Below, in pieces: positions 2,189 through 32,000 of a stretch of DNA of 32,000 nt. How positions within the stretch are numbered: position 1 is the first letter of the stretch; each line of letters begins with the position of its first letter. The notes beneath the pieces are model-generated. The model did no database searches. It was not told the origin of the DNA and saw only the letters and a program-made list of their open reading frames with translations. The translations under genes were made by a program, and so were the position numbers. Source of the stretch: Candidatus Saccharimonadota bacterium (GTDB lineage: Bacteria; Patescibacteriota; Gracilibacteria; BD1-5; UBA6164); NCBI GenBank assembly GCA_965229705.1, contig OZ245922.1:420001-452000 (forward strand), written 5' to 3'.

Positions 2189-2794
2189 ATGAACAAAAAA
2201 GAACTACAAGATATGCTCTGAGAAATAACAAAAAATATCGGTCTTTTGGATTTTTATCTTTCGGAAAACAAACTCCTCAAAAAAACAAAAACTCACTTTT
2301 TTGTTTCAGATCTTGATGAGACTCTCTTTTCTCGCAAAAAACAACTCAAAAATGAAGAAGGGCTAAGAAAAAATAGAGGAGAAGCATGAAACACCTATAT
2401 GGTCAATAACATCGGTATTTATGAGATGATAGAAAAGTATTATGTGAAAAAAAAATATCCCCAAGAAATTATTACCACCCTTCACGATCAAGAAAGTCTC
2501 ATACTCACTGCCGGTATGCCCGAGTATCAAGAAATGAAGAAGCGAGCTCTTGGTTTTGATGATATTCCTATGCGTGTGGTAGTGAGTAGTGAGGATAAGA
2601 TTCTTGAGCTGATCAGGTATGTGTTATTTCGACTCAAGTATCTCCCAAAAACTATTACCATTTATGAAGATAGACCAGAGTACTTTATCAAGTATCGCCC
2701 TCTTATAGAAAAAGTTCTCTCATGTCAGCTAAAAATTATGAAGGTAGAAATGGATGGCAACAACGGATACAAAAAGATTGAAGAGGTTTCTTAA
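2189..2794 (+). CDS. HAD-superfamily-like hydrolase (201 aa)
   Basis: ATG 2189 to TAA 2792-2794 with read-through TGA at 2219 and 2387. N-terminal FVSDLDETLF fits HAD motif I (DxDxT). The remainder is unassigned. Confidence 0.55.
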
Positions 2795-2874
2795 AAAAAC
2801 CTGAGAAACCCCTTTTTTCTCTCCTTTTCCAAAGGAGAGATTGCTCGATAGAGCCAGAGAGAATTAGAAATTTT

Positions 2875-4389
2875 CTATTTTTCAGAATTTCCTGAAATCT
2901 CTTGTAATTGTTCTGCATATAATTCTCTTCCCTTTTTTGTCGGAAAATTCCCACTAATACATCAGAGACACATATCTTTTACTTCAACCTGTAGGGCATC
3001 AATAAGCCTCTCTTGGTTTATGTATCTCAGGGAGTTTGCTCAGAGATGTTTCGCAAGTCTTTCGAGCTCATAGTCTTGAGGATTTTGAGGATTTTGAAAG
3101 AATCTATTTGCGAGTAATTCTTCAATTTTGCGTAAGTTAATTGCATAATAACATGGGGCCATAATAGGTGGAGAAGGTATGCGGATATGTACCTCGCTTG
3201 ATTGAAAAAAGTTTTTTACGATTTCTATTAGATATTCAAGTGTTGTTCAACGAACCATACTATCATCTATGAGAATCAATTTTTTTCAGCGAATTTTATC
3301 GATAAGTCCTGGATGAAAAATATATTTCTTTTTCAAAACCTCTATCCTTTCTTCTCTTGTTTTTGCGATAAATGATCGCTTATCAAAATCAGGGTTTTTA
3401 AAAATAGCTGCCTCAAAATGCTGTAAGTTGAGACTATCAGCGTAACCATCAGCACTATCTTTGGAACTAGCTGGAACATGTATCACAACACTATCTTCTC
3501 GAGAAAAGGTATTTCTATCAGTATCTGCAAGATTTTGCCCAAGTCTATAGCGATGTTCACTTGATGTTTCTCCCCAGAGTTGTGTTTTGGGATCAGCAAA
3601 ATATACGGTTTCAAAAAAACAGTGTGATGTTTTTATAGGAAGATCGATATCCATAAGTGACTGCTGAACCTGTGATGATTGTGGTGAAAACTTTATAGAT
3701 TCTCCAGTGTCTACTACCTTGATATGTTTACTATGAATTTTAACTCGTCATAGTGCGCTACTCTCACTTGAAAAATAAATATTTCACTCATGAACACCAT
3801 GAAATACAGGACGAAAACCCCATCTATCTTTTGTAAGGGTAAATCATCACTCACTGTCTGCAAGAACAATATTACAAGATCCATCTATCTTTTCATTAAT
3901 ATTTTCTAAGATTCTTTTGGTATTTTTTTCTCAAGACTTGATATTACTGCGTATCATATATTCAAGTACTTTTGTATCAAATATGGGTCTCTGGAAAAGT
4001 GTTTCGCCTTGCTGCTCTTCAATATTTTGTGCAATATCTTCTGCATTAGCAATATTTCCATTAAAAGCAAAGGCATGATGAAGTCCTGTTTTAATCTCAA
4101 ATGGTTGAAAAGACTCTGTTCATGCTTCGTTTCCTCAACTTGTGGGGTAACGAGCATGTCATATGATTCCGATAATATCTCGAGCTGTATCATGGACTTG
4201 CTGATATATTTGAGGGTCGTTAAGGTCTGTAAACTTCAAAGTTTGTATTCCATCTTGCGCTGTTACGACTGAGAGACCATATCATTCTTGTCCTCTATTT
4301 TTATTTCAACGAAGGAGATTGAGGGCGATTTGTGGAAGATCAGACTTCGATGTTCTCTCTATATCATAAACTCCTATTATTCAGCACAT
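2875..4389 (-). CDS. purF: Amidophosphoribosyltransferase (glutamine-PRPP amidotransferase), Fe-S type
   Basis: ATG at 4389 to TAG 2875-2877, verified codon by codon. Motifs: N-terminal M-C-G(TGA)-IIGV nucleophile Cys, NRGQEG, GHARYPTSGG, AFNGNIAN, RWGFRP, PRPP loop KKLILIDDSMVRGTT, and cluster-type cysteines (HCFFE, APCYY, CLGC). Track fragment 3286-3654 is in the same frame. Confidence 0.93.
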
Positions 4390-5292: not shown

Positions 5293-5613
5293 ATGGATTT
5301 TAGCAAAGCAGGAGAACTTATGAAACTCCAACAAGAAGCAATGAAAGTGAAGAAAGAACTCGAAAATACTCTCATCGAAGCAGAAGAAAAAGGTCTTGTA
5401 GTAACAATCAACGGAGAAATGAAGGTTGAAAAAGTTGAGTTTGAGACAGAAGAACTTATCGGAGACAAAAAAGGACTTGAAGAGGCTATTATGGTCGCAG
5501 TAAATAAAGGAATGAAAAAAGCTCAAGAAGTCGCAGGATCAAAGATGCAGTGAGTCATGCAAGGTATGGGGCTTGGAGATATGGCTTGAGGTCTTCAGTG
5601 ATTAGGAAAATAA
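5293..5613 (+). CDS. ybaB: YbaB/EbfC-family nucleoid-associated protein
   Basis: ATG 5293 to TAA 5611-5613. Three TGA fall in the Gly-rich tail (QGVMQGMGLGDMAGGLQGLGK). About 106 aa, with KLQQEAMKVKKELE...VVTINGEMKV...LEEAIMVAVNKGMKKAQE typical of the family. Confidence 0.85.
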
Positions 5614-9342: not shown

Positions 9343-10425
9343 ATGCATAAAAAAAATACTATGAGTCTCGATCTTCGAATAAGTGTCAGTAATGAAAAAT
9401 ATCATCAAGAAATGCAAGGAAGAATTGCCCCTCTTTTACGGGCATGATTTACACAAGAGTTAATTGAAAAAGCAACCGTAAAAGTAAATGCCACTCTTTG
9501 GATGAAACCCGAAGAAAATATTATACCAAAAATTCAAGGACTCAAAAATCTTGGATTTGCAGATCCTGTGAAACTTATCTCTGCTTTTCCACCAATCCTC
9601 GGTTGTAGTCTCGAAGAAAATATTAGGCCAAAAATTCATATCCTTGACCACTTTATACAAGATATATCATTAGGGAGAGAGCTCATCATACGAGCCCCTG
9701 AAATACTCTCAACAAAGAAAGATAAGTCGTGGATCATTCTGCGTTGACTCTATCACTTATGATTCTTACAAAAAGAATATTATGAGAAAGTGGTACAAAA
9801 CTATAAACGAATCAATATAGAAAATATTGAAAACTTTGTTATTGCTATTATCGAAACTCAGGAGTGAAATGTCAGTGCCAGTGATCTTCTCAAAAAAATA
9901 CGCGAGGTAAAAAAGAGAAGCATAGAAAAAGAAGAAAAGAGAAATTTCCTACAAACCTCTCTTCAGAAAGGAGATTCCAAGAAAAAACTTATTGAAAGGT
10001 ATTTCCGAGGGTATCCTCTCAAAAAAGCGTCTACTCAAAAAAAAACATACTACATAAGTTTTTTTCTCTCTTCAAGCAGTTTCACAAAAGAGAGGTATAT
10101 ATCGGATAATTCGGTGAGAAAAAGTGTTTGAACTCCTATCTTTTCAAGAGCAGATTTCAAAGATTTTTTTTCTTGTAACCTCGCTAAACGATACTGTTCT
10201 CTCTTGCGAATATCTGCAGTATCTATAAATATTTCCTTTTCTCACAGGCTCAGATGACAAATACCCTCTCATTCAAGGGTATCCTCAAATTGACTCGAGA
10301 GATGTATATATATGATATCATGTTTTTGTGAAAGCAGACTCAAACTCTTACTATCAATATCTAGAGTATCACTGAGAAAAAACAGCAGTGATTTCTTCAT
10401 TTTGCAGGAGAGCATACTGCGATAA
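9343..10425 (+). CDS. mTERF-like helical-repeat protein; 3' end uncertain (no TAA/TAG before 10423-10425)
   Basis: ATG 9343. Repeats EENIIPKIQGLKNLGFADPVKLISAFPPILGCSL and EENIRPKIHILDHF...LIIRAPEILS resemble the mTERF motif. The DNA-level repeat GAAGAAAATATTAnnCCAAAAATTCA occurs at 9511 and 9613 (102-nt period). Beyond about 10050 the frame runs antisense through the DUF58 gene and looks non-protein-like. Confidence 0.5.
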
Positions 10426-10886
10426 TCCCTACTGTCACATGAAGAAATATGTTTCATTTTTTCGTCTATTTCTTTATAAAAAAACGGAAGATTTTTATGA
10501 GGTTTTCTTGGCTGTATAAAAGTATTTTCTCCAGAAGAGAGTATATAAGCTCAGAGATTTTCTCACAGTGACTCTGCAATATCTGCTATATGCCTCAAAA
10601 CTTTTTTCATCAGATGTTTCTTGAGATGGTCTTCATAACTCAAAGTCTCACTTATATCACATACACACAAAATATTGATACTTGTTTCTTCGTGATATGT
10701 TCGCATCAATGTTTTAGTGCTACGAGTCGATACCTGCCAATCAATTCGTTTAGCATTATCTCCATAAGAGTATTCTCGATAATGATGAAACTCTTGTCCT
10801 CCACCTCAAAAATGAGAACGAAAATTTCACACCAAAAAAGAAGCAAGAGCTTTTTTTGGGAAAATCTTTGGATATAGTTTTTTCAT
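10050..10886 (-). CDS. DUF58-family protein (MoxR-associated)
   Basis: ATG 10886 to TAG 10050-10052 (278 aa). Motifs HFGGGGQEFHHYREYSYGDNAKRIDWQVSTRSTKTLMRTYHEE and ILCVCDISETL are classic DUF58. It lies 22 nt downstream of moxR. Confidence 0.87.
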
Positions 10887-10908
10887 AGTATTTTTTCTCA
10901 GATTTCTC

Positions 10909-11850
10909 TTAGTGATTCAAAGGAACAAGAGAAAGTATCTTTGTTATAACATCATCAGTGGAAATTCATTGAGCAAGAGCTTCGTAACTCAATGAGAGTC
11001 TGTGTCTAAGTACTGGGTATGCCATCTCTTTTATATCTTCTGGAAGTACATAATCCCTTCACTGTAAAAGAGCATAAGCTCTTGAAGTTTGCAGTATAGC
11101 AAGTGACGCTCGTGGTGATGCTCCATAATTTAGTTCTGTGAGTTTGGTTATTTCTCTGCTATAGGCAATAATATTACATATATACTCGTAGAGACTCTCT
11201 GAAACTTGTATTGTTGTGAGATGTTGTTGTATTTCTGATATATCCTCTTTTGTAATGCAGGAAGATATTTTTTGTGCGTTTCGAGTATCAGCTGACATGA
11301 GAATCTCTTTTTCTTCTTGTATGCTCGGGTATGGAACCTGAGACTGGAGGAGAAATCTATCCATTTGTGCTTCGGGGAGTTCGTGAGTTCCTTCTTGTTC
11401 AAGAGGATTTTGTGTTGCGAGAACAATAAAAGGTTGAGGGAGAGAAAAAGTTTTTTCCGCAATAGTCACTTCCAATTCCTCCATAGCTTGCAATAGAGCT
11501 GACTGAACTTTACTTGGAGCTCTATTAATCTCATCTGCGAGGATGAAGTGAGCAAAGATAGGTCCCTTTTTGATTTCAAACTCTTTTGCGTCAGGATCAT
11601 ATATCCTTGCTCCTATGATATCACTTGGGAGCAGGTCAGGAGTAAACTGTATACGACTTTCTTGCAAGTGTGTTGCCTGTGAAAAGGCTTTTACCAGTCG
11701 CGTTTTCCCAAGTCCAGGAGCTCACTCAATCAAAATATGTCATGAACACATAAGAGCAATAGTGATATCTCTTTTGAGTTCTCATTGACCAATGATGACT
11801 TTTGAGACTTCATCTATGAGCTGTGTGAGTTTTGCTTGGATTTTATGCAT
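10909..11850 (-). CDS. moxR: MoxR-family AAA+ ATPase
   Basis: ATG 11850 to TAA 10909-10911 (313 aa). Walker A is I-E-G(TGA 11722-11724)-APGLGKT. Other motifs: IQFTPDLLPSDIIG, Walker B ILADEINRAPSKVQSALLQAMEE, LATQNPLEQEGTHELPEAQMDRF, GASPRA. Confidence 0.94.
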
Positions 11851-20067: not shown

Positions 20068-20685
20068 ATGTACACAGATATACATGATTTTCCAACTCTT
20101 GCGAAAATAGATACTCTAGCTCCAAGCTTTGAAATGCCCTATTATTGCCCGAAAAAAGATGATGAATGAGTCTTGCATCTGCAAGATCTCAAAGGAAAGT
20201 GGGTTGTTCTCTTTTACTATCCTGCAGATTTTACCTTTGTGTGTCCAACAGAACTCAAAGATATGGCTGACTCGAAGGCACAGTTTGATAATATGTGAGT
20301 AGAAGTACTTGCCGTATCTACTGACACGATTTTTTCTCATAGAGCCTGGGTCAAGCAGGAAATCCTTATGAAAAACTTTCCCTATAAAATGCTCGCAGAT
20401 CACAATCTCGAAACAGCTGACTGCTATAATATCCTTGATGAAAAAACAGGTATTGCAGGTCGTGGGACTTTTATCATTGATCCTGAAGGGATTCTCAGAG
20501 GTATAGAAATCACTTCTGGTCCTTTAGGGAGAAATAGTGAGGAGTTATTACGAAAGATAGAAGCATTGCAGTTTATGTCTGCAAATCCTGGTGTTGCCTG
20601 TCCAGCAAAATGGACCGCAGGCTCAAAAACACTTACCCCTTCTATCAAAATAGCAGGTGAAGTTGGTGAGCAGCTAGAAAAATAA
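20068..20685 (+). CDS. ahpC: Typical 2-Cys peroxiredoxin (AhpC/Tsa family)
   Basis: ATG 20068 to TAA 20683-20685 (205 aa). Motifs: [15 protein letters not shown] (peroxidatic Cys), [11 protein letters not shown], resolving Cys in GVACPAKW. Confidence 0.93.
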
Positions 20686-20690
20686 AAAAA

Positions 20691-20720
20691 TAAGAGCAGA
20701 GAATCTGCTCTTATTTTTTT
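20691..20720. terminator. Bidirectional hairpin terminator between convergent ahpC and the ATPase gene
   Basis: 9-bp stem TAAGAGCAG / CTGCTCTTA with loop AGAAT. It is flanked by an A7 run upstream and a T7 run downstream. Confidence 0.8.
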
Positions 20721-21982
20721 CTAATACTGAAAATATCTCTTTTCAGACCTACTTTTGTGATATCTTCAAATAAATACTCTACTCATTTCTCATATCTCTT
20801 TTTGTATTCTCCTCAGCGAGTAATGATCGCACGAGGTATTTTATCTTCGTATTTTCATACAAAACTCAAGAGAGATTTTGGAATAATGTCTTTTTTTCCT
20901 GATTTGATTTCAATAGGAAGTATCATATTTTCAAAATTATCGAGCATCACAAAATCTACCTCTGTACCATTCTTATTTTGCCAAAATTTGATATCTAAAA
21001 AATCTGGAGATACAAAGCGAATTTCATTGTATGCATAGTTTTCAATAATTTTTCCATAAAAATTGGTGTCGAACGAAGAAGGTCAAAGAATATAGTTTAA
21101 AAATCCTATGTCATTCATATATCATTTTCTTGATTTTTTTATTTCATTTTTAAGATTTCAAGAAAATGGTTCTATAAAATCAAATAAAAAGCTTGATTCT
21201 GCTATCTGTAAAAATTTTACATAGAGTTTCTTTTTGATGCCAAGCTCTGCTATAATTTGTTCCGCTTTTATGAGACTTCATATTTTCGTAGCAAAAAGCT
21301 GTAAAAATTTTATAAAGTAAATATTTTCATCTTCTTGAAGCAAAAAGCCTATATCTTTGTAAAGATAATCATCATAAATACTTTTAAATACCCATTTTTT
21401 TTCTTGCTGTGTTTTTGCTTTTACGACTTCTGGGTATCATCCATAACGTAGATAGATTTGAAAATTTTTCTCAATTTCTTTTTGTATAATAGCATTATTC
21501 TCTGGCATTTTTTCTACATTCATTCATTCAAATTCTAAAAATTCTGAAAATGAGAAAGGGCGTACTTGGATAAGATTATATCTTCCAATCAGACTGTCAG
21601 TAATACCGCGAAATACTTCTAAGCTCCCACTCCCAGAAATAATAAGTTTGAGTGAAATATCACCTTGTTTATTTTTATCAACGAGATATTTAATGATAAT
21701 TCCAATATTTTTAATTTTCTGGGCTTCGTCGATAATCAGGTATTTCTTATTTGAAATATCATAACGAAATTCTAAGAGTTCTAGGAATTCTTTCGGAGAA
21801 AAATTTTCTAAGAAAAACTCATCTCCACTCAATACCAGTTCTTCATTCACGATTTTTTTTTCGCGCAAGATTTGTATGAGGGAGCTTTTTCATACTTGTC
21901 GTGCTCAGACAAGTATTAGTGCATTTTTATTATCAAGGCAGCTCTGAATTCTTTCAATATATTTTTTCCGATAAAAAAGCAT
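20711..21982 (-). CDS. AAA_14 / DUF4143-type ATPase (423 aa)
   Basis: ATG 21982 to TAA 20711-20713, checked codon by codon. Walker A LVGARQVGKSSL, Walker B LIIDEAQKI, then GGYPEVV and the C-terminal GKIIENYAYNE...NGTEVDFV...PIEIKSGKK typical of DUF4143. Confidence 0.85.
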
Positions 21983-22344
21983 ACTTTTCAAAAAATTACA
22001 ATATATATTTCTTTTAAGTATGCTTTTTTTACAAAAATTGCAATATTTTCGTAGGTTTTTCTTCGAGAATCATAGCAGAAATATATTTTTCGATATAAAA
22101 AGTTCGAAATTCTCATGAGATATGAGTTATTGCTCGTTTGGTCTGCCTAGAAGGTCATCGTTTCATGAATGATCCCATGTAGAATCCCATGTTTCAATGA
22201 TTCATGTTTCTCTGACTTTATAATATATGGTAGTTGTTACAATTGTAGCAATTAGGTTTTGTTTTTTTCTACTTTATGATGTTATCATTTCTCCCCCATC
22301 CCTTGTCAAAAAAATCACTATTTTTTTGAGGAAAAAAAGATATA

Positions 22345-23130
22345 ATGATGAAAGCTATGGAAGTAAAACTAAAAAAAGATATGCAAAAAATTGATATACA
22401 AGACTACGAAAAAAAGATCCGTTCTTTACAGAAAGAACTTGAAAAATTTCGTCCAATACCTGAAGTGCAACTGAAAAACTTACAAAACTGGTTCAACATC
22501 TGATTCACTACTCATTCAAATGCTATTGAAGGAAATAGCTATACTCTCTCTGAAGTAAAAGTCCTTATAGAAGATGGTATTACTGTATGAGGGAAAACTA
22601 TTCGTGAAACAAAAGAAACTGAAAATCTCGCTGAGATTACACAGTCACTCTGGAGCTTTTTTGAACAAGACTTTCTCCTGACAGAAAAGTTCCTCTATGA
22701 TATGCATCGAAAGCTCCTGAAAGGTATAGAAAAAAAATATATAGGAAAATATAGAGATTCTCAGGTATTCATAACTGGAAGTGAAGATATTCCACCAAGT
22801 TCAAAAGAGCTCCCAAAACTTATGCAAGAGTTTATATATTTTTGTAATAGCGAGACTTCAAAAAAAGATTGCCTAAAAAAAATCTCAGATATACATTTTC
22901 GCTTTATAAAAATACATCCATTTTTTGATGGAAACGGAAGAATATGAAGACTTCTCATGAATCTTTTTCTCGTAAAATATTGATATTTCCCTATAATTTT
23001 CCCGATAGTTACGAGAATAGAATATATTCAAAGCCTGTGAAAAGAAAAAAATTCCGAAGATTTTTATAAATATTTTCTCTGGCAAATGTATGAAAACATA
23101 AGTGACTATTTACGATTTTTCCAAGACTAA
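22345..23130 (+). CDS. fic: Fic-domain protein (AMPylase-type), class II with N-terminal inhibitory motif
   Basis: ATG 22345 to TAA 23128-23130 (261 aa). Fic motif HPFFDGNGRI-G(TGA 22945-22947)-RLLMN at 22915-22950. The [S/T]xxxE[G/N] inhibitory motif SNAIEG lies at 22516-22533. Confidence 0.9.
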
Positions 23131-23167
23131 AATATGGATATATATCTTAAATTTGCAGAAAAATATA

Positions 23168-23752
23168 ATGATTACTCTCTCTGATCTTTCAAAAAAAGTT
23201 CTTTCAAAGCAGCAACAAGAACTTCTCTTCACTATACTCTTCCTCATAGCCTTCTACAGCTTTCTTTTTGTGAGCCAAATAGCATCTGGAGTTATTGCAT
23301 TATTTCTTTTTGTTATGGTCTATGTATACCTCAAGAAATACCATCAACCCAACGAACTCTCTGTGCTCTTATGAAGTATCATATTTTCAAGTATCCTCAT
23401 CGTAATTCTCAAATCTCTTGCCTTGAGTGATAGTGAGATCATGAACTCAAGGCTCAGTAATATCTTTGAGCATATAAACCTGATGTTTGCTCTCGGGATT
23501 ATGAGCTATAGTCTCTCAAAACCTTTTATAGAACACAAAACTATTCTCAGCGTATTTTGTGTATTTTTCTCTTTTACGATAAGCGTCGTTTTAGAAATCA
23601 TGCAATATATCTATAGAGATTATTTCTGACTTATCACAAACAAAGTGTATGGCATTTACCATGACAGTATGATAGATTTATGAGTCAATTTTATTAGTGC
23701 TTGGATAATCTGTTTCTGTCTTGTATCAATACTGAAAAAAGAAAAGAAGTAA
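23168..23752 (+). CDS. Multi-pass membrane protein, possibly VanZ-like
   Basis: ATG 23168 to TAA 23750-23752 (194 aa). Track fragments 23102-23374 and 23423-23629 are in phase. There are 4-5 hydrophobic helices. LEIMQYIYRDYF...DSMIDLGVNFISAWI loosely resembles the VanZ family. Confidence 0.55.
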
Positions 23753-23821: not shown

Positions 23822-24226
23822 TTACTTCTTTTTTTCGTCTCACAGTGAAAGATGATGAAAAAACTCTTTTGCCCGAGAAAGAAGGTTTTGTGAGTACTTG
23901 CGAAGTTTTTTTGTTCCCTTTTTGTACTCTTCTCATTCTTGCACTTCTGCAATGACTTTCTGAGCTTGGCTGATATATTTTTGAGATCACTGTATAAAAG
24001 CAGCCTTTTTTTTCGAAAATGATTTTTGTTGTTCTGGAGATAAAAGATATTTTTCTATATCAGAAAAAAGGCTTTTATGAGTCTGGATAAATGTTTCAAA
24101 AGCAGCAGAAATATCTCTATCTTTTTGTCATTTTTTTTCTCACTTTTTTTTCTCTGAATACAAAGATGCTATCACATTTCCGGCAAGATATCACGCTGTG
24201 AGAAAAAGTATTTTTTTTCAAAACAT
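23822..24226 (-). CDS. Small membrane-anchored Lys-rich helical protein (YtxH-like?)
   Basis: ATG 24226 to TAA 23822-23824 (134 aa) with 7 read-through TGA. N-terminal GKKILFLTAGYLAGNVIASLY is followed by charged helices. The frame is closed by TAG just upstream of the ATG. Confidence 0.45.
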
Positions 24227-24456: not shown

Positions 24457-27045
24457 ATGGTATACAACAACTTTTCCGACGGATACAAAAAAACCCTCAT
24501 AAACGCTGAAAATAATGCGAGAAAACTCTGACTCAAAGATCTCCGACCAGAAGACATATTCCTCGAACTATTAGAAAATGCTGACGGCAGCATACTCGAG
24601 GTTCTCACGCTATACGGTATTGATAAAAAACTGGCTCTCGAAATCATCAATAAAGGAAACCTCAATGATCCCTTCTCAAAAAGAAAATGAGTTTATAGTG
24701 GTATGAACCAAAAGTGTAAAGATATCATTCTTGGAAGCGTAAAACTTGCAGCATCTCACTCAAAACCACGAGCTACCCTTGAAGACCTCCTCATGTCTCT
24801 GCTTGTATGAGATACATGGCTACCGAGTTTTTTGGAGTATATCGGTATTAACCCCAGCGACCTTGAAACAAATCTCTGAGACCTCTTTCGCCTTGGAACA
24901 CAAGATGGTACATGAAATACTGCCAACTCTCAAGTATCATCTGAATGAAACACTAGCAGTGATGACTCTATCGAAAAACTCTTTGGAACACTCGCAGAAA
25001 ATATATTCTCGAGTATTCAGTCAATGGCATGATGATGAGAAATGGAGACTCCTTTTGATGCAAATACAAAACAAGGAAAAAAAGAAGACTCTACAACTCC
25101 TGCACTTGATTTTTTTTCAACAGATCTTACTGCAGAAGCCCGAGAAGGAAAAATCGACAATATCATCGGAAGACAGTGAGAAATAGAGAGACTCATCGGA
25201 ATCCTCAATAGAAAGACAAAAAACAACCCCTGCCTCGTATGAGAAGCCGGAGTAGGAAAAACGGCAATAGTAGAAGGGCTTGCCCTCAGGATCGCAAAAG
25301 GAGATGTTCCATTTTCGATGAAAGATAAGAGGATTCTCTCTTTAGATATGTCGTCTCTTGTTGCAGGAACAAAGTTTCGAGGCGAGTTTGAGTCTCGTAT
25401 TAAACAAATTATTGAAGAAGCTAGTAAGGTAGAAAATGAAGTTCTCCTCTTCATTGATGAGATACATACCATCATCTGAGCTGGAAGTGGGGAGGGATCT
25501 CTTGATGCTTCAAATATACTCAAACCTGCTATGGGTCGTGGAAAAATACGCGTTATAGGAGCAACAACTCTCAATGAATATCAAAAATATGTAGAAAAAG
25601 ATCCTGCTCTTGAAAGACGCTTTCAAAAGATTGTTGCTGCAGAACCAAGTAGAGAAATAGCGCGAGATATTATTTCTGGCCTCAAAGAGGTATTTGAAGA
25701 ATATCATAACCTCAATATTTCTAGCGCGGCTATAAACGAAGCTGTTGATCTCTCTATCAGATATATCACTGATAGACAACTTCCTGACAAAGCCATAGAC
25801 CTCATAGATGAGGCCTGTAGTCTTAAATCTATGAAATATAATGTTGATGAAGAAGAAATAAAAAAAATACGCGAAAAAATGGCGAAAAATCAAAAAAAGA
25901 TAGAGTCAGCAGTTATGTCAGAACAGTATAAAAAAGCCGTCGCTCTCAAAGATATTCAAAGCGCTTATGAGAAAGAGATTCAAACAATTAAGCAAAAATT
26001 CTCTATTCCAAAAAATGAGCGTTTTTGGGTTCAGGCCGAAGATATTCATAAAGTTCTTTCTATTACGACAGGTATTCCTGTGGCAAATCTCTCTAAAAAA
26101 GAGATAGATCGACTCAAGAGACTTCCTCGCCATATGAAAAAAAATATCATCGGACAAGACCCTGCGATAGAAGCTATTTGTAAATCTATCATCAGAAACA
26201 AAACTGGTATCGGAGAACCAAATAGGCCTCTTGGAAGTTTTCTCTTTCTTGGTCCAACAGGGGTAGGAAAAACCGAAATAGTAAAAGTTCTTGCTCGAGA
26301 GTATTATGGTGATGAGGATGCGCTTATTAAAATAGATATGTCAGAGTATTCTGATAAAACTTCTGCCAATAAGCTCATTGGTGCAAGTGCTGGATATGTG
26401 TGATATGAAGAGGGATGAGTTTTGACAGAAAAAGTACGAAAAAAGCCTTACTCTATTATTCTTTTCGACGAGATAGAAAAGTGAGATGTAGAGATATATA
26501 ATCTTTTGTTACAAATCCTTGAGGAGTGAGTTCTCACAGACAATAAATGAAGAAAGGTAAATTTTAAAAATACGGTAATTGTTATGACATCAAATATTGG
26601 GCAGGAAGAGTTTGGTGAACGAGCTGCGCAAATAGGTTTCAATATTTCAGACAGTGATGAAGAAAAAGTAATGAATGACTATGAAAAAGCGCAAGACAGA
26701 GTAAAGTGATCATTGACAGAGTACTTTTCTCCAGAGTTTGTAAACAGAATAGATAAGGTAATCGTGTTCAATCCTCTTGATAGAACCGCTATTAAAAAAA
26801 TTATTCGTCTGCAACTGGAAAAATTTGAGTCTCGGCTGGTAAACCAAGATATGCATATAGATTATGATAATAAGGTGATAAATGCTATTGCAAAAGAGGT
26901 ATACAATCCTGAGTTTGGAGCAAGAGAGATTCGTCGTTTTATTACCAATATGATTGAGGATCAGATTGCTGAGATGATTCTCAAAGACGCAGCGAAAAGG
27001 CATTTTGAACTATTTTCAGGGAAGAAAGGAATCGAAGTGAGGTAG
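24457..27045 (+). CDS. clpC: ATP-dependent Clp protease ATP-binding subunit, ClpC-type (862 aa)
   Basis: ATG 24457 to TAG 27043-27045. Two Clp_N repeats; Walker A1 G(TGA 25240-25242)-EAGVGKT; [13 protein letters not shown]; a short middle domain with a UVR-like motif ([13 protein letters not shown]); Walker A2 GPTGVGKTE; GYV-G(26401)-YEEG-G(26416); LFDEIEK; NTVIVMTSN; GAREIRR. Confidence 0.95.
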
Positions 27046-27046
27046 C

Positions 27047-27071
27047 AAAACAGCCCCAAAGGGGCTGTTTT
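27047..27071. terminator. Bidirectional hairpin terminator shared by clpC and the minus-strand cassette
   Basis: 11-bp stem AAAACAGCCCC / GGGGCTGTTTT with loop AAA. It starts 2 nt after the clpC TAG and lies 22 nt beyond the TGA of ORF 27093-27299. Confidence 0.8.
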
Positions 27072-27092
27072 ATTATAAAAGATAAGAGAGAT

Positions 27093-27299
27093 TCAAGATT
27101 TTGGCTTGAGCTCCCTAGCAATGTTATCAATAGTTATGGTAATTCTTTTTTCGCCTATACCATGATAACATTTTTGGCAGATTGGAAGGCTAACTTGCAC
27201 GTCAGCCTCCTTGTTCTTTCTCCCCTCAAATGGAGGGTTGGGATGATAAGCGAAGGGGCTTCCGACCCCTATTCCCTCCAAGCATTGAATGCAATTCAT
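27093..27299 (-). CDS. Small CxxC...CxxC (zinc-ribbon-like) protein, 68 aa if TGA 27093-27095 terminates; would extend to TAA 26862-26864 under table 25
   Basis: ATG 27299 is preceded by GGGGAG (27306-27311) with a 6-nt spacer. The peptide is MNCIQC...PICQKCYH. All 6 Gly are GGN codons. G/C-ending codons (aag, gag, gac, gtg, ccc, ggg) are unlike the neighbouring genes. The TGA is followed by the hairpin terminator. Confidence 0.4.
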   Translation of the reverse strand: MNCIQCLEGIGVGSPFAYHPNPPFEGRKNKEADVQVSLPICQKCYHGIGEKRITITIDNIARELKPKS

Positions 27300-27305
27300 T
27301 TTTAT

Positions 27306-27311
27306 CTCCCC
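27306..27311 (-). promoter_or_regulatory. Shine-Dalgarno-like site for ORF 27093-27299
   Basis: The minus strand reads AGGGGAGATAAAAATG; GGAG sits 6 nt before the ATG. Confidence 0.45.
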
Positions 27312-27314
27312 TAG

Positions 27315-27569
27315 TTAAATGCTTACTAATGTACTAATGAGTATTATAGTCAAAAGGAATTTTTTTATTCCTCTGTAATGAAATGCTATCGGAATAGCCA
27401 TTTCGACCCACGTTCTATCCTCTTCCTTAGGTTTGATACCTAATCCTCTTTGAATCAGGGTTAAAGCTCCCGTATCTCCTGGCTCATCTTCAGAATATTT
27501 TTGAAATAACACATCTTGCACCCAGATTACAATTATAAAAAGCTGGAAAAAGAAAACTACATAAAACAT
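27315..27569 (-). CDS. Small membrane protein, 84 aa (two hydrophobic segments flanking an acidic loop)
   Basis: ATG 27569 to TAA 27315-27317, preceded by AAGGAG (27577-27582) with a 7-nt spacer. There is no TGA in the ORF and all 5 Gly are GGN. N-terminal MFYVVFFFQLFIIVIWV and C-terminal FLLTIILISTLVSI are hydrophobic. Confidence 0.45.
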   Translation of the reverse strand: MFYVVFFFQLFIIVIWVQDVLFQKYSEDEPGDTGALTLIQRGLGIKPKEEDRTWVEMAIPIAFHYRGIKKFLLTIILISTLVSI

Positions 27570-27576
27570 ACAATTT

Positions 27577-27582
27577 CTCCTT
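27577..27582 (-). promoter_or_regulatory. Shine-Dalgarno-like site for ORF 27315-27569
   Basis: The minus strand reads AATAAGGAGAAATTGTATG, a canonical AAGGAG with a 7-nt spacer. Confidence 0.5.
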
Positions 27583-27657
27583 ATTATTCTGTTTCTGTTT
27601 TTGATCCCCACGCAAGATCACCTTTATTGCGTAGGAATCTTGGTTAAAGACACCCTT

Positions 27658-27684
27658 ATTATGATAATTTAAAAAAATAGTCAA
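27658..27684 (-). promoter_or_regulatory. Putative sigma70-type promoter of the minus-strand cassette
   Basis: The minus strand reads TTGACT (27679-27684), a 15-nt spacer, then CATAAT (27658-27663). The roughly 90-nt leader contains a 9-bp stem (27607-27615 / 27627-27635, one G-U pair on the minus-strand RNA). The spacer is shorter than optimal. Confidence 0.3.
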
Positions 27685-27763
27685 ATATCTTTTTCTGAAA
27701 ATGCGTGAAAAAATCGTATTTTTTCCTATAGTAAGGGAAAGAAAACTCTTTTTATAAAAAAGT

Positions 27764-29377
27764 ATGGTCAGTCTCAAAAAAATATTTCTCTTACTCTTGT
27801 GTATCTTGTCTCTTTTGCAGAGCCATAACAGCTTTGCTATACTATGAGAAGATCTCGGACTTGATCTGTATAAACAAATAGACTCAGGAATAAAAGACCT
27901 CCAAATACAACAATATCAATATGAACTCTCAGGACAATGACAGACAAATATACAAAATGTCCTCACTCCAATATTTGAAAGAGAATGAATCAACTGTGAT
28001 ATACGCTCTAGCTCAGACATAGAAAACTTTCTCGGAAATACCGCAGAAGATCAGGTGGCATACATTTTTGAAAAATGCTGATTTTCTGATGAAAACCCTG
28101 CTCCCACAGAACTCATATCAAAAGTAGTCTCTATCAGCACATACATCAAAAATACCTACTGACAAAAAGCCCAAGCAAAGACAGACGCCCTCTACAATGT
28201 TGCACGAACAGGAATATACAATGATGGAAATAGGGAAAATTCACCTTTTGATCTCATCGTTGATCTACAAGATATTGACAGTATCATCTTCTCCGAAGAG
28301 ATTCCTTATGAATGAATAGAGTATCCACTCTCAAACCAAGCTCTCCAAAATTTTATTGATGACAATATCAATGATCCTCTTACAGGAATTATCACTGATA
28401 TAGCTCTATGAAATAGCGATGAAGCAGCTGCTCAATACGCACAAAATATGGAAAGTTCTTTTGAGACATTTTTCCCAGCAAATTCACTATCACATAACTA
28501 TGTCTGTACAACTGATGATAATATTGCCAGTTTTTCTGTATCTGATGTTGAGCAAGCTCGCCCATCAACAAGTAGCAATTCTTCTCAAGTATGGATGTAT
28601 TCTCAAGAAACTGCTAGTAGCGGTGCAAGCTGGTGATGACCATTTCCATGACAAACACGTAGCGTCACATATAACGCCTATACTGACGAGTGGGGTTGTA
28701 AGGCTGGAACATTTTTTTGTATTGTTATAGCGTTTGAAGACGATAACTATGGTATGAACTCCTCTGATACTTTTAGTGTAGAATGAGTAATCACCCGAGC
28801 ATGAAAACATCTTGAAAAAGCCGCAAACACTTCCCTCACGCAGAAAAAAATGACCACTAATAACTTTGAGCTTGGTGCTATTATAAGCGATCTTCCATGA
28901 ACTCTTAGAGGTTTTTGACTTGAGGTAACGACTCAGCCTGTTCCCATACTTGAGGTGCAAAACTCAAAAAAATCTCAAGTGAATGGAGATATGTATCAGA
29001 TAGAAAATCTTCTATACACCTACTATAAAAATAATGGTCTCGACTATAAAAGAGCAAATGATTTACGAATATTTTGAAGTATCAGTGGAATAGCCCCAAG
29101 TGAGCAGGAAGAAAAGATCTTTCAGACAAGTGAATGAATGCCTCTCAATTATGTAGAACAAAGAAGAAATAATCTCAAAAAATTTATGTCAGCCCTCGAA
29201 GAAAATAACAGACTCGTATCAGAATCTGTAGAAAAACAAATTATCCATGATGATATGAAAAAATTCAATAAAAGCTTTTCTGAACTAGAACAGTTTGTCA
29301 AAAATATTGAAGACTTTGTAAAGTCAGTAGCATGAACTGTAGAAGTTTTGGAAAAAATACCTACTCGCTCCAGCTAA
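27764..29377 (+). CDS. Secreted orphan protein S1 (537 aa)
   Basis: ATG 27764 to TAA 29375-29377. Track fragments 28448-28636 and 29138-29335 are in phase. Signal peptide MVSLKKIFLLLLCILSLLQSHNSFA; several cysteines; helical charged C-terminus. No family recognised. Confidence 0.7.
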
Positions 29378-31412: not shown

Positions 31413-31421
31413 CAATATAAA

Positions 31422-32000
31422 ATGAAGTTCCAACAAGCATATACAGATTTTCTCGACTGGCTCGAAGCAGTAAAAAATAAATCTCAAAGAACTGTAGAGC
31501 AGTACGGGAGGCATCTTGAGAAATTTTCTGAGTACCTCGAAGAAAAAAACATTGATAGTTTACGCTTCGAGGTAGAAAAAATAACATTAAAACTTGCTGA
31601 GTGATTTCGGTCATATCTGTATAAAAACAATAAAAATATTTCTATCAAAACGGCAAACGCTTATATGATTACTCTCAGGAGTTTTCTCAAGTATCTCGAA
31701 AAAAAATGAATAACTTCTCTCTCCCCTAGCTCTATTGATCTCATCAAAGCCGAAGCTCGAAAAGTCGAGTTTCTCACAAATGAGGAACTAGAAAAAATAT
31801 TTGCTATCCCAAACACAAAGACACTCATAGGAAAGCGTGACAGAGCCATTATGGAATGTATTTATTCAACAGGACTGCGTATTTCAGAGCTTACCGCGCT
31901 CAATAAAAATGACATTAACTTACAAACGCAAGAATTTGCCGTGAGAGGAAAGTGAAGAAAGCTCAGAGTCGTCTACCTCACAAATACTGCTACCTGACTG
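31422..32000 (+). CDS. Tyrosine recombinase, XerC/XerD-like (3' end outside window)
   Basis: ATG 31422. N-terminal SAM-like core-binding domain (FLDWLEAVKNKSQRTVEQYGRHLEKF, TANAYMITLRSFLKYL) and the start of the catalytic domain (FLTNEELEKIF...RDRAIMECIYSTGLRISELTAL). Confidence 0.85.

What the first reader, a model, noticed from the sequence alone, without database searches (positions are those of the whole stretch)
27093..27700. Two-ORF cassette with standard-code hallmarks embedded in a TGA=Gly genome
The two small minus-strand ORFs (84-aa membrane protein at 27315-27569; 68-aa CxxC...CxxC protein at 27093-27299) differ from everything else in the window in four ways. First, both have canonical Shine-Dalgarno sites at correct spacing (AAGGAG-7nt-ATG and GGGGAG, with GGAG 6 nt from the ATG). 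None of the other roughly 18 start regions I inspected has a canonical, correctly spaced one. Second, all 11 glycines are GGN, with no TGA in 152 codons. Neighbouring genes use TGA heavily (21 in orphan B, 13 in orphan A). Third, the second ORF ends in TGA 22 nt before the strong hairpin terminator shared with clpC. Under table 25 it would instead read through the terminator and 184 nt of antisense clpC to TAA 26862-26864, adding a junk-like 77-residue tail. Fourth, the second ORF is visibly more G+C-rich and uses G/C-ending codons. Upstream there is a TTGACT/CATAAT promoter-like pair and a structured leader. Possible explanations are a recent acquisition from a standard-code organism or phage, a code-dependent element (toxin, lysis or immunity-like membrane plus Zn-ribbon pair), or an assembly chimera.
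Basis: partly seen in the sequence, partly recalled or inferred. Interest (0 to 1): 0.78.

Follow-up and report, generated by a model that had tools for sequence, protein, structure and literature searches.

The report
Foreign-looking two-gene insert in Gracilibacteria
A roughly 590-base insert found only in this Gracilibacteria genome (a bacterium that reads the stop codon TGA as glycine) carries two small orphan genes with ribosome-binding sites and TGA-free coding that the host's own genes lack. It is most likely DNA recently acquired from a source using, or compatible with, the standard genetic code, and its second gene has lost its stop signal in this host.

Summary
The window is a TGA=Gly genome: clpC has 18 in-frame TGA, which align to Gly in standard-code homologues. 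Between clpC (stop at 27045) and the next gene (start at 27764) lie two tandem minus-strand ORFs.

- **Ribosome-binding sites:** ORF1 has AAGGAG-7nt-ATG and ORF2 has GGGGAG-6nt-ATG. No such site precedes any of about 26 native genes here, and about 1% of 175 genes in the clade have one. The tandem arrangement arose in 0 of 20,000 shuffles.
- **Glycine codons:** 0 of 11 are TGA, against 41% in host genes.
- **Composition:** ORF2 is the most extreme 207-nt stretch of the 32 kb. ORF1 is ordinary.
- **ORF2 end:** TGA lies 21 nt before the hairpin shared with clpC. The next TAA is 77 codons on, antisense to clpC.

New context comes from thirteen related loci. They keep the flanking genes, but this intergenic slot is empty in nine. 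In three it holds unrelated orphan ORFs, two of which are also SD-led and TGA-free. So the cassette is a lineage-specific insertion, not a chimera.

No homologue of either ORF exists in any database searched, so the donor and function are unknown. I rate recent import at about 0.5. The rivals are native orphan genes, a structured RNA in place of ORF2, and decaying debris. Interest is moderate.

The parts
27315..27569 (-). ORF1: 84 aa, ATG start, TAA stop. It has hydrophobic N- and C-terminal segments (residues 1-23 and 67-84) and no Cys. All 5 Gly codons are GGN. It is an orphan.
   Evidence: The only database hit is itself. Nothing in Pfam, PHROGs, PADLOC, NCBIfam, PDB, phages or IMG/VR. Codon-usage score is at the 91.5th percentile of spurious ORFs and the 3.9th percentile of real gene segments.
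27577..27582 (-). Shine-Dalgarno-like AAGGAG, 7 nt upstream of the ORF1 ATG
27093..27299 (-). ORF2: 68 aa with CxxC...CxxC (Cys 3, 6, 41, 44). All 6 Gly codons are GGN. It ends at TGA 27095-27093. GC is 43.5%. It is an orphan. The same stretch is also predicted to be strongly structured as RNA.
   Evidence: Exhaustive phmmer against 1.84 billion representatives found only itself plus a chance hit. Fold z = -3.3 on the minus strand against -1.1 on the plus strand.
27306..27311 (-). Shine-Dalgarno-like GGGGAG. It lies 3 nt after the ORF1 TAA stop and 6 nt before the ORF2 ATG, a layout typical of translational coupling.
26862..27092 (-). Read-through tail of ORF2 under table 25: Gly plus 76 residues, ending at TAA 26864-26862. 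It passes through the terminator hairpin and 184 nt antisense to clpC. Its codon usage looks non-coding.
   Evidence: (score -0.02, 53rd percentile of spurious ORFs)
27046..27071 (.). Hairpin AAAACAGCCCC-TTTG-GGGGCTGTTTT, directly after the clpC stop (TAG 27043-27045). Its T-run is good in the clpC direction. On the cassette strand only four U follow the stem.
   Evidence: I6. Every related locus has an equivalent hairpin of different sequence at this position.
27603..27639 (-). 13-bp stem-loop in the putative 5' leader of the cassette
   Evidence: MFE -21.3 kcal/mol, z = -3.4. No equivalent stable hairpin in the L001 leader.
27658..27684 (-). TTGACT (27684-27679) plus an AT-rich -10-like stretch: CATAAT at 15-nt spacing or TAATAA at 17 nt. 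This is a possible minus-strand promoter. The TTGAC box belongs to the conserved backbone, not to the insert.
   Evidence: (not called by the scan). In plus orientation the box reads AGTCAAA and lies about 60 nt upstream of the conserved promoter of the gene at 27764.
27072..27657 (-). Approximate extent of the lineage-specific insert: leader, ORF1 and ORF2. It has no counterpart in any related locus.
24457..27045 (+). clpC, the conserved flank. It has 18 in-frame TGA=Gly codons and stop TAG.
27705..27732 (+). Promoter-like GTGAAA-16-TATAGT of the downstream gene, conserved across the clade
27764..29377 (+). Conserved flank: a clade-specific secreted protein of 537 aa with 17 TGA codons and no Pfam family

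Best explanation
The stretch 27072-27657 is a lineage-specific insertion into a fast-turnover intergenic slot between clpC and the next gene of a TGA=Gly Gracilibacteria genome. It carries a compact two-gene mini-operon of foreign type.

Shown:
- The insert is absent from all related loci.
- Both ORFs have correctly spaced SD sites in a clade that otherwise does not use them.
- Both ORFs lack TGA codons.
- ORF2 is a compositional outlier.

Inferred:
- The cassette was acquired recently from an SD-using source that uses, or is compatible with, the standard code. This could be a standard-code bacterium or its phage, or one of the TGA-free phages reported for Gracilibacteria. It has not yet been ameliorated.
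- It is transcribed from the backbone TTGACT box, with a 5' stem-loop at the start of the transcript.
- ORF1, a small protein with two hydrophobic segments, is translated and stops normally at TAA.
- ORF2, a four-Cys, Zn-ribbon-like protein, initiates by coupling at an SD 3 nt after the ORF1 stop.
- Gracilibacteria lack RF2, so the donor-type TGA stop of ORF2 is read as Gly and ribosomes run into the hairpin. If the transcript ends there, the message has no stop codon and the product would be rescued and tagged for degradation. If it does not, a 145-aa protein with a hydrophobic junk tail results. Either way ORF2 is probably crippled in this host.

The biochemical function of the pair is unknown.
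For: - **Insertion:** Synteny of the 23822 gene, clpC, slot, the 27764 gene, the 29332 gene and map is kept in 13 related loci. The slot is 0-151 nt in nine of them. It holds unrelated orphan ORFs in L001, L002 and L008. Occupied and empty slots are interleaved on the ClpC identity matrix.
- **SD:** Native genes, including the low-TGA genes sodA and prx, have none.
- **TGA-free:** 0 of 11 against 41%.
- **Same pattern elsewhere:** The L001 slot ORF has AAGGA-7nt-ATG, 0 of 5 Gly as TGA in a genome at 51%, and TGA 20 nt before its hairpin. The L008 slot ORF has AAAGGAG-6nt-ATG and 0 of 5 in a genome at 29%. The L002 slot ORF has no SD and 8 TGA codons.
- **Composition:** ORF2 is the most extreme 207-nt window, and the cassette is at the 95th-99th percentile for k = 2 to 4. 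Codon usage of both ORFs is below the 4th percentile of host gene segments.
- **Coding signal:** Two CxxC pairs in 68 aa.
- **Literature:** prfB is absent from all BD1-5 genomes (PMC6851277). TGA-free phages predicted to infect Gracilibacteria are described in PMC10746230. The anti-SD motif is generally retained in CPR outside one Parcubacteria subgroup (PMC9297842).
Against: - No homologue of ORF1 or ORF2 was found in 5.8 billion clustered proteins (both ORFs) or in 1.84 billion representatives read exhaustively (ORF2 only). Phage, plasmid, IMG/VR, Pfam, PHROGs, PADLOC, NCBIfam and PDB searches were also empty. No donor is identified, and neither ORF is supported by conservation.
- ORF1 composition is host-like.
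- The empirical probability of the TGA-free result is only 0.03-0.04. Some native genes are TGA-poor, such as sodA and prx at 2 of 14.
- The minus-strand promoter is not canonical.
- No integrase, transposase or flanking repeats are associated with the insert. The Xer gene at the window end is syntenic in all loci.
- A native gene also has a long junk-like tail with no stop.
- The ORF2 stretch folds unusually well as RNA.
- Expression is untested.
Confidence: 0.5

Rival explanations
1. ORF2 is not a protein gene. The GC-rich stretch 27085-27319 (minus strand) is a structured RNA, either a 3' UTR element of the ORF1 message or a small RNA that ends at the hairpin. The open frame, the 'SD' and the terminal TGA would then be by-products. 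ORF1 may still encode a small protein.
For: - MFE is -72 kcal/mol for 235 nt. z = -3.3 on the minus strand against -1.1 on the plus strand. Only 2 of 82 background windows reach this value. With the terminator included, z = -4.7.
- A predicted long-range helix pairs the GGGGAG region with the CUCUCU stretch just after the TGA.
- GC-rich islands in AT-rich genomes are often RNA genes.
- ORF2 codon usage is not host-like, at the 77th percentile of spurious ORFs.
- This reading explains why no TAA/TAG follows.
Against: - No Rfam family matches, even at E <= 1.
- No homologues exist, so covariation cannot be tested.
- An SD-ATG-ORF of at least 60 codons arises in only 0.5% of shuffles.
- Two CxxC pairs are unlikely in a chance frame.
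- The SD sits at a coupling distance from the ORF1 stop.
Confidence: 0.2
2. These are native, lineage-specific orphan genes, either born in place or diverged beyond recognition. Their SD sites and avoidance of TGA reflect selection for strong, coupled translation. The 145-aa read-through product, or an end set by transcription termination, is the normal state.
For: - ORF1 GC and GC3 are host-like.
- GGN codon preferences match the host.
- Presumably highly expressed native genes (sodA, prx) are TGA-poor at 2 of 14.
- A native mTERF-like gene also lacks a nearby stop.
- The flanking genes themselves evolve fast, at 38-45% identity across the clade.
Against: - sodA and prx have no SD, so SD use does not track expression in this genome.
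- SD cores are depleted upstream of starts across the clade.
- ORF2 is the compositional extreme of the window.
- The slot is empty in nine related loci.
Confidence: 0.15
3. The insert is non-functional debris or an artefact. It is either a decaying fragment of foreign DNA that is no longer expressed, or, less likely, a misassembly or minority-strain variant.
For: - The cassette is a singleton, seen on one contig only.
- There are no homologues.
- The promoter is non-canonical.
- ORF2 has no usable stop.
Against: - Both ORFs, both SD sites, the coupling distance and the leader hairpin are intact.
- Both flanks are syntenic, and the insert sits exactly between conserved backbone elements.
- A 590-nt piece with two chimeric junctions inside a 1.0-Mb contig is improbable.
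- The analogous L001 ORF was seen on 6 contigs.
Confidence: 0.1

Closest known systems
Genes of 'code-11-compatible' phages predicted to infect Gracilibacteria and Absconditabacteria (Liu et al. 2023, mBio, PMC10746230)
   Same: These are genes associated with a code-25 host that contain no in-frame TGA and so read the same under codes 11 and 25.
   Different: In those phages a TGA stop is backed by a nearby TAA/TAG. Here the next in-frame stop is 77 codons away. All integrated phage sequences in that study were code 25, whereas this cassette is chromosomal and has no phage gene nearby. No sequence relative exists in IMG/VR or GenBank phages.
Phage 'morons' and small horizontally acquired genomic islets
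   Same: It is a compact promoter-ORF(s)-terminator unit inserted between two conserved genes. It has atypical composition and orphan content, and it is present or absent among close relatives.
   Different: It lies in a bacterial chromosome, not a prophage. The -35 box and the terminator belong to the host backbone rather than to the insert. There are no recombinase genes or repeats.
Non-stop messages rescued by trans-translation (tmRNA)
   Same: If the transcript ends at the hairpin, ORF2 has no in-frame stop that this host can read. That is the substrate for ribosome rescue.
   Different: This is purely inferred. The 3' end of the transcript and the presence of ssrA in this genome are untested, and no tmRNA gene lies in the window.
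Small four-Cys zinc-ribbon proteins (for example the N-terminal domain of antitoxin MqsA), recalled from memory as a lead only
   Same: CxxC at residues 3 and 6, and a second CxxC about 35 residues later.
   Different: There is no detectable sequence similarity to any Pfam, NCBIfam, PADLOC or PDB entry. The structure model is too poor to compare (pLDDT 49). There is no HTH domain and no toxin partner.

Membership tests
Horizontally acquired islet (foreign DNA insertion) | Present/absent polymorphism between conserved flanking genes in relatives | tested here: met
   The slot is 0-151 nt in 9 related loci and 718 nt here. The flanks are syntenic.
Horizontally acquired islet (foreign DNA insertion) | Composition and codon usage that depart from the host | tested here: met
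   ORF2 is the most extreme 207-nt window. Both ORFs fall below the 4th percentile of host codon-usage scores. ORF1 GC is ordinary.
Horizontally acquired islet (foreign DNA insertion) | An identifiable donor or homologues outside the lineage | tested here: not met
   No homologue in any database searched.
Code-11-compatible Gracilibacteria phage genes (PMC10746230) | No in-frame TGA | tested here: met
   0 TGA in 152 codons, against 2.7 per 100 codons in the host.
Code-11-compatible Gracilibacteria phage genes (PMC10746230) | TGA stops backed by a nearby TAA/TAG | tested here: not met
   The next in-frame TAA lies 77 codons after the ORF2 TGA.
Code-11-compatible Gracilibacteria phage genes (PMC10746230) | Phage context: structural genes, an integrase or a CRISPR spacer match | tested here: not met
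   No phage genes occur in the window. PHROGs finds nothing. The Xer gene is syntenic housekeeping. Spacer matching could not be tested.
Phage moron | Own promoter and terminator around the ORF(s), located inside a prophage | tested here: not met
   The -35 box and hairpin are backbone elements also present in empty slots. There is no prophage.
Integron gene cassette | attC recombination site and a nearby intI integrase | tested here: not met
   No flanking structured repeat other than the terminator. The only tyrosine recombinase is the conserved Xer gene 3.7 kb away, which is present whether or not the slot is occupied.
Toxin-antitoxin or anti-phage defence pair | Similarity of either protein to a known toxin, antitoxin or defence family | tested here: not met
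   PADLOC, Pfam and NCBIfam find nothing.
Known structured RNA family | A match to an Rfam covariance model | tested here: not met
   No hit at gathering score. Only chance-level hits appear at E <= 1.
Genuine protein-coding genes | Conservation under purifying selection, or direct evidence of expression | not testable with these tools
   Both ORFs are singletons. No expression data are available.

The most novel reading that the evidence does not exclude
The clpC-proximal slot of this Gracilibacteria clade may be a landing pad for a class of small SD-led, TGA-free cassettes that move between standard-code bacteria (perhaps the hosts or prey of these episymbionts, or their phages) and code-25 cells. 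The TGA-terminated second gene would then act as a genetic-code sensor. In a standard-code cell it would be made correctly. In the code-25 cell it would be extended into a terminator and destroyed by ribosome rescue. That would make the cassette's activity depend on the genetic code of the cell it is in.
Probability: 0.04. Interest if true: 0.85.

Novelty: new variant of a known kind. Interest (0 to 1): 0.45.

Why it matters
If the reading is right, this is a natural case of gene flow across a genetic-code boundary, caught before amelioration. Import from the standard code into code 25 leaves reading frames intact but disables TGA stops, so the cost of a code 'firewall' in this direction can be seen directly. 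The gain of TGA-Gly codons and the loss of SD sites could also serve as a clock for dating imports into Gracilibacteria. The recurrence of SD-led, TGA-free ORFs at one slot in three genomes hints at a hotspot or a targeting mechanism. If the ORFs are not expressed, it is simply a small piece of foreign or orphan DNA.

Tried and rejected
- **Homology searches, all empty.** The word-indexed search of 5.8 billion proteins was run for both ORFs. Exhaustive phmmer of 1.84 billion representatives was run for ORF2; its only other hit, P0003, is an unrelated repeat protein. Pfam, PHROGs, PADLOC, NCBIfam and PDB gave nothing. The 718-nt spacer was searched by blastn against phages and plasmids, ORF1 by tblastn against phages, and both ORFs against IMG/VR. 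tblastn against the 15 related loci gave nothing for ORF1. For ORF2 only the read-through tail matched, as expected for the antisense strand of conserved clpC.
- **Structure prediction.** The AlphaFold model of ORF2 from a single sequence had pLDDT 49, so no fold search was run.
- **Source contig.** The look-up of encoding contigs could not retrieve the source contig.
- **First genome scan.** A scan of genome contigs with the neighbouring 537-aa protein found nothing. The clpC scan succeeded.
- **A shared 'vehicle' between the window and L001 cassettes.** Leader and terminator similarities were marginal (p = 0.003 and 0.008). They did not exceed the null in a full-length scan. The L001 leader does not form the hairpin. 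The idea was dropped.
- **Terminal repeats or target duplications.** Only short AT-rich chance repeats were found.
- **ybaB as a native SD-led gene.** Rejected, because the Pfam domain begins before the internal ATG.
- **The Xer recombinase as a cassette integrase.** Rejected, because it is syntenic in all loci.
- **tRNA, tmRNA and Rfam explanations for the spacer.** None found.
Full report
**1. Setting**

The window comes from a genome in which TGA is a sense codon. clpC (24457-27045, plus strand) is a single 862-aa frame only if its 18 TGA codons are read through. Against seven standard-code ClpC genes, those codons align to Gly in 48 of 80 aligned positions and never to Trp.

The closest relatives found by a clpC scan of genome contigs are Candidatus Gracilibacteria MAGs, with 58-80% ClpC identity. 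Both target ORFs are on record only as singletons from one NCBI/ENA contig of 1,006,762 bp.

**2. The observation**

- ORF1 is 27569-27315, 84 aa, with stop TAA.
- ORF2 is 27299-27093, 68 aa. Its Cys residues are at 3, 6, 41 and 44, and it ends at TGA 27095-27093.
- Under table 25, ORF2 continues for Gly plus 76 residues to TAA 26864-26862. This tail passes through a 12-bp hairpin at 27071-27046 (z = -4.9) that abuts the clpC stop, and then through 184 nt antisense to clpC.

*SD sites.* AAGGAG lies 7 nt before the ORF1 ATG, and GGGGAG lies 6 nt before the ORF2 ATG. The second site begins 3 nt after the ORF1 stop.

- None of about 26 native genes in the window has such a site.
- One apparent exception, AGGAG before ATG 5320, is internal to ybaB. 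The Pfam domain of ybaB begins upstream of that ATG.
- The gene at 23822-24226 has GAGGAG only 3 nt from its ATG, which is a near miss.
- Among 175 genes of at least 120 aa in the window and 15 related loci, a 4-mer SD core precedes 4% of starts, below the 8.3% seen before internal ATGs. A 5-mer precedes 1.1%.
- Two tandem SD-ATG-ORFs of at least 60 codons never arose in 20,000 dinucleotide-preserving shuffles of the 718-nt spacer. One arose in 0.5%.

*TGA.* Host genes use TGA for 248 of 611 Gly codons (41%), while the two ORFs use it for 0 of 11. The binomial probability is 0.003. Empirically, 2.7% of runs of 11 Gly codons and 4.4% of 152-codon windows in real genes are also TGA-free. sodA and prx use TGA for only 2 of 14 Gly codons.

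*Composition.* ORF2 has 43.5% GC, at the 98.5th percentile, and is the most extreme 207-nt window of the 32 kb in di- and trinucleotide content. ORF1, at 33% GC, is ordinary. Both ORFs score below the 4th percentile of host gene segments for codon usage, and at the 91.5th (ORF1) and 77th (ORF2) percentiles of spurious open frames.

*Corrections.* TTGACT and CATAAT are 15 nt apart, and the promoter scan calls no minus-strand promoter here. The leader hairpin at 27639-27603 is real (z = -3.4).

**3. Comparative context (new)**

Thirteen related loci inform on this slot: L001, L002, L005-L009, L081-L083, L085 and L086 span it, and L084 begins inside the downstream gene and so cannot be scored. 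All keep the gene order: homologue of the 23822 gene, clpC, slot, homologue of the 27764 gene, homologue of the 29332 gene, map, xer. The slot between clpC and the next gene varies as follows.

| Slot length | Loci |
|---|---|
| 0-151 nt (empty) | L005, L006, L007, L009, L081, L082, L083, L085, L086 |
| 545 nt | L001 |
| about 610 nt | L002 |
| 878 nt | L008 |
| 718 nt | this window |

The occupied slots hold unrelated orphan ORFs on the same (minus) strand.

On ClpC identity, the window lies outside a group in which L001 (occupied), L002 (occupied) and L007 (empty) are 86-88% identical to one another. Turnover at the slot is therefore fast, and the window's cassette is a derived insertion of about 590 nt (27072-27657).

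The TTGAC box and the hairpin are backbone elements that are also present in empty slots. In plus orientation the box reads AGTCAAA, and it lies about 60 nt upstream of the conserved promoter of the downstream gene (GTGAAA-16-TATAGT, 27705-27732).

The slot ORFs fall into two kinds.

| Slot ORF | SD | Gly codons as TGA | TGA share of Gly codons, whole locus | End |
|---|---|---|---|---|
| Window ORF1 | AAGGAG-7nt-ATG | 0 of 5 | 40% | TAA |
| Window ORF2 | GGGGAG-6nt-ATG | 0 of 6 | 40% | TGA, 21 nt before the hairpin |
| L001 ORF | AAGGA-7nt-ATG | 0 of 5 | 51% | TGA, 20 nt before its hairpin |
| L008 large ORF | AAAGGAG-6nt-ATG | 0 of 5 | 29% | TAA |
| L002 ORF | none | 8 TGA codons | 50% | TAA |

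In 227 kb of clade sequence, no other intergenic SD-led ORF of this kind was found. This repeated pattern is the strongest argument that the window's features mark a class of foreign-type genes rather than chance.

**4. What it is**

The best reading (confidence about 0.5) is a recently acquired mini-operon from an SD-using source that uses, or is compatible with, the standard code.

The literature supplies a plausible pool of such DNA. Most phages predicted to infect Gracilibacteria have no in-frame TGA and read identically under codes 11 and 25 (PMC10746230). Gracilibacteria lack prfB (PMC6851277), so a TGA stop cannot be read. The anti-SD motif is generally retained in CPR bacteria outside one Parcubacteria subgroup (PMC9297842), so an imported SD could still work.

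The mechanism below is inferred, not shown:

- Transcription starts near 27655 from the backbone box.
- A 5' stem-loop forms at the start of the transcript.
- ORF1 is translated and stops at TAA.
- ORF2 initiates by coupling to ORF1 termination.
- At the ORF2 TGA, glycine is inserted and ribosomes enter the hairpin.
- This gives either a message with no stop codon, to be rescued and tagged, or a 145-aa product with a hydrophobic tail.

The function of the hydrophobic ORF1 protein and the four-Cys ORF2 protein is unknown. No toxin, defence, lysis or phage family matches.

**5. Evidence against, and rivals**

No homologue or donor exists in any search. Neither ORF is therefore backed by conservation.

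(a) *Structured RNA in place of ORF2 (0.2).* The ORF2 stretch folds unusually well and in a strand-specific way. z = -3.3 on the minus strand and -1.1 on the plus strand, and only 2 of 82 background windows reach this value. A predicted long-range helix pairs the GGGGAG region with the sequence just past the TGA. ORF1 shows no such structure (z = -0.5). There is no Rfam match. The double CxxC and the SD-ATG-ORF statistics argue for coding.

(b) *Native orphan genes under selection for strong translation (0.15).* ORF1 composition and the GGN preferences are host-like. However, the low-TGA native genes have no SD.

(c) *Debris or artefact (0.1).* All signals are intact, and the insert sits exactly between conserved backbone elements. 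That makes a chimera with two junctions improbable. The analogous L001 ORF recurs on six contigs.

*A caveat on hallmark 3.* A native, TGA-containing mTERF-like gene (9343-10425) also has no TAA/TAG near its expected end. It runs 375 nt antisense into the DUF58 gene, and its tail has non-coding codon usage (0.04 against 0.29 for the body). Long junk-like tails are therefore not unique to ORF2 in this genome.

**6. Comparison with known systems**

The cassette works like a moron-like or islet import, and it resembles the TGA-free phage genes of PMC10746230. It fails two of that class's features: a backup stop after TGA, and a phage context. It is not an integron cassette or a known toxin-antitoxin or defence pair, and it matches no Rfam family (see the membership table).

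I file it as a new variant of a known kind: a chromosomal, SD-led, TGA-terminated cassette in a code-25 genome.

**7. Verdict**

Acquisition is likely, the donor code is inferred, a chimera is unlikely, and a code-dependent function is unsupported.
- Interest is 0.45. The cross-genome slot pattern and the unreadable stop are interesting for the question of genetic codes as barriers to gene transfer. However, the ORFs are orphans with no evidence of expression.

Noticed in passing
window 27046-27763; L001:12575-13119; L002:3848-4460; L008:12593-13470; empty slots in L005, L006, L007, L009, L081-L083, L085, L086: The spacer between clpC and the next gene is a fast-turnover slot in this Gracilibacteria clade. 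It is empty in nine loci and holds unrelated minus-strand orphan ORFs in four. Three of the four occupied slots carry SD-led, TGA-free ORFs, while the L002 ORF is SD-less and TGA-rich.
   Followed up: yes
window 20711-23752: A second variable region. A low-GC (26-33%) block of three genes lies between prx (20068-20685) and the gene at 23822-24226. The genes are an AAA_14/DUF4143 ATPase, a Fic/DOC protein and a multi-pass membrane protein. In L007 and L081-L083 the homologues of the two flanking genes lie about 100-770 nt apart, with none of the three genes detected between them. These three genes do contain TGA-Gly codons and have no SD.
   Followed up: partly
window 9343-10425 (+) against 10050-10928 (-): A native mTERF-like gene with TGA-Gly codons in its body has no TAA/TAG at its expected end. 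It stays open for 375 nt antisense to the 3' end of the convergent DUF58 gene. The tail has non-coding codon usage. How such genes terminate in a genome with only two stop codons is unexplained.
   Followed up: partly
window 5293-5613 (+): A small YbaB/EbfC gene (Pfam PF02575, E = 1.5e-12) lies in what looks like a spacer. Its internal AGGAG-5nt-ATG at 5320 mimics an SD-led start, but the domain begins upstream, so the start is ATG 5293, which has no SD.
   Followed up: yes
window 27679-27684 and the equivalent position in L001, L002, L005-L008 and L081-L083: A TTGAC(T/A) box (AGTCAAA on the plus strand) is conserved about 60 nt upstream of the promoter of the 537-aa gene, even where the slot is empty. 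It could be a regulator binding site, an UP-like element, or the -35 of a divergent promoter that fires straight into the clpC terminator.
   Followed up: partly
window 2401-2925 (+): Two adjacent 225-nt windows have predicted-fold z-scores of -3.2 and -3.4, the lowest in the background sample. They span the 3' end of the gene ending at 2794 and the spacer before the convergent gene at 2875-4389.
   Followed up: no
window 31420-32000 (+): The N-terminal part of a XerC/XerD-type tyrosine recombinase runs off the window end. It is syntenic at 63-78% identity in all related loci whether or not the slot is occupied, so it is a housekeeping gene and not linked to the cassette.
   Followed up: yes
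L008:12600-12737 (-): A 45-codon ORF follows the large L008 slot ORF. It has a hydrophobic N-terminus, one in-frame TGA at codon 16, and a frame that runs through the terminator hairpin. This loosely parallels the read-through of window ORF2.
   Followed up: no
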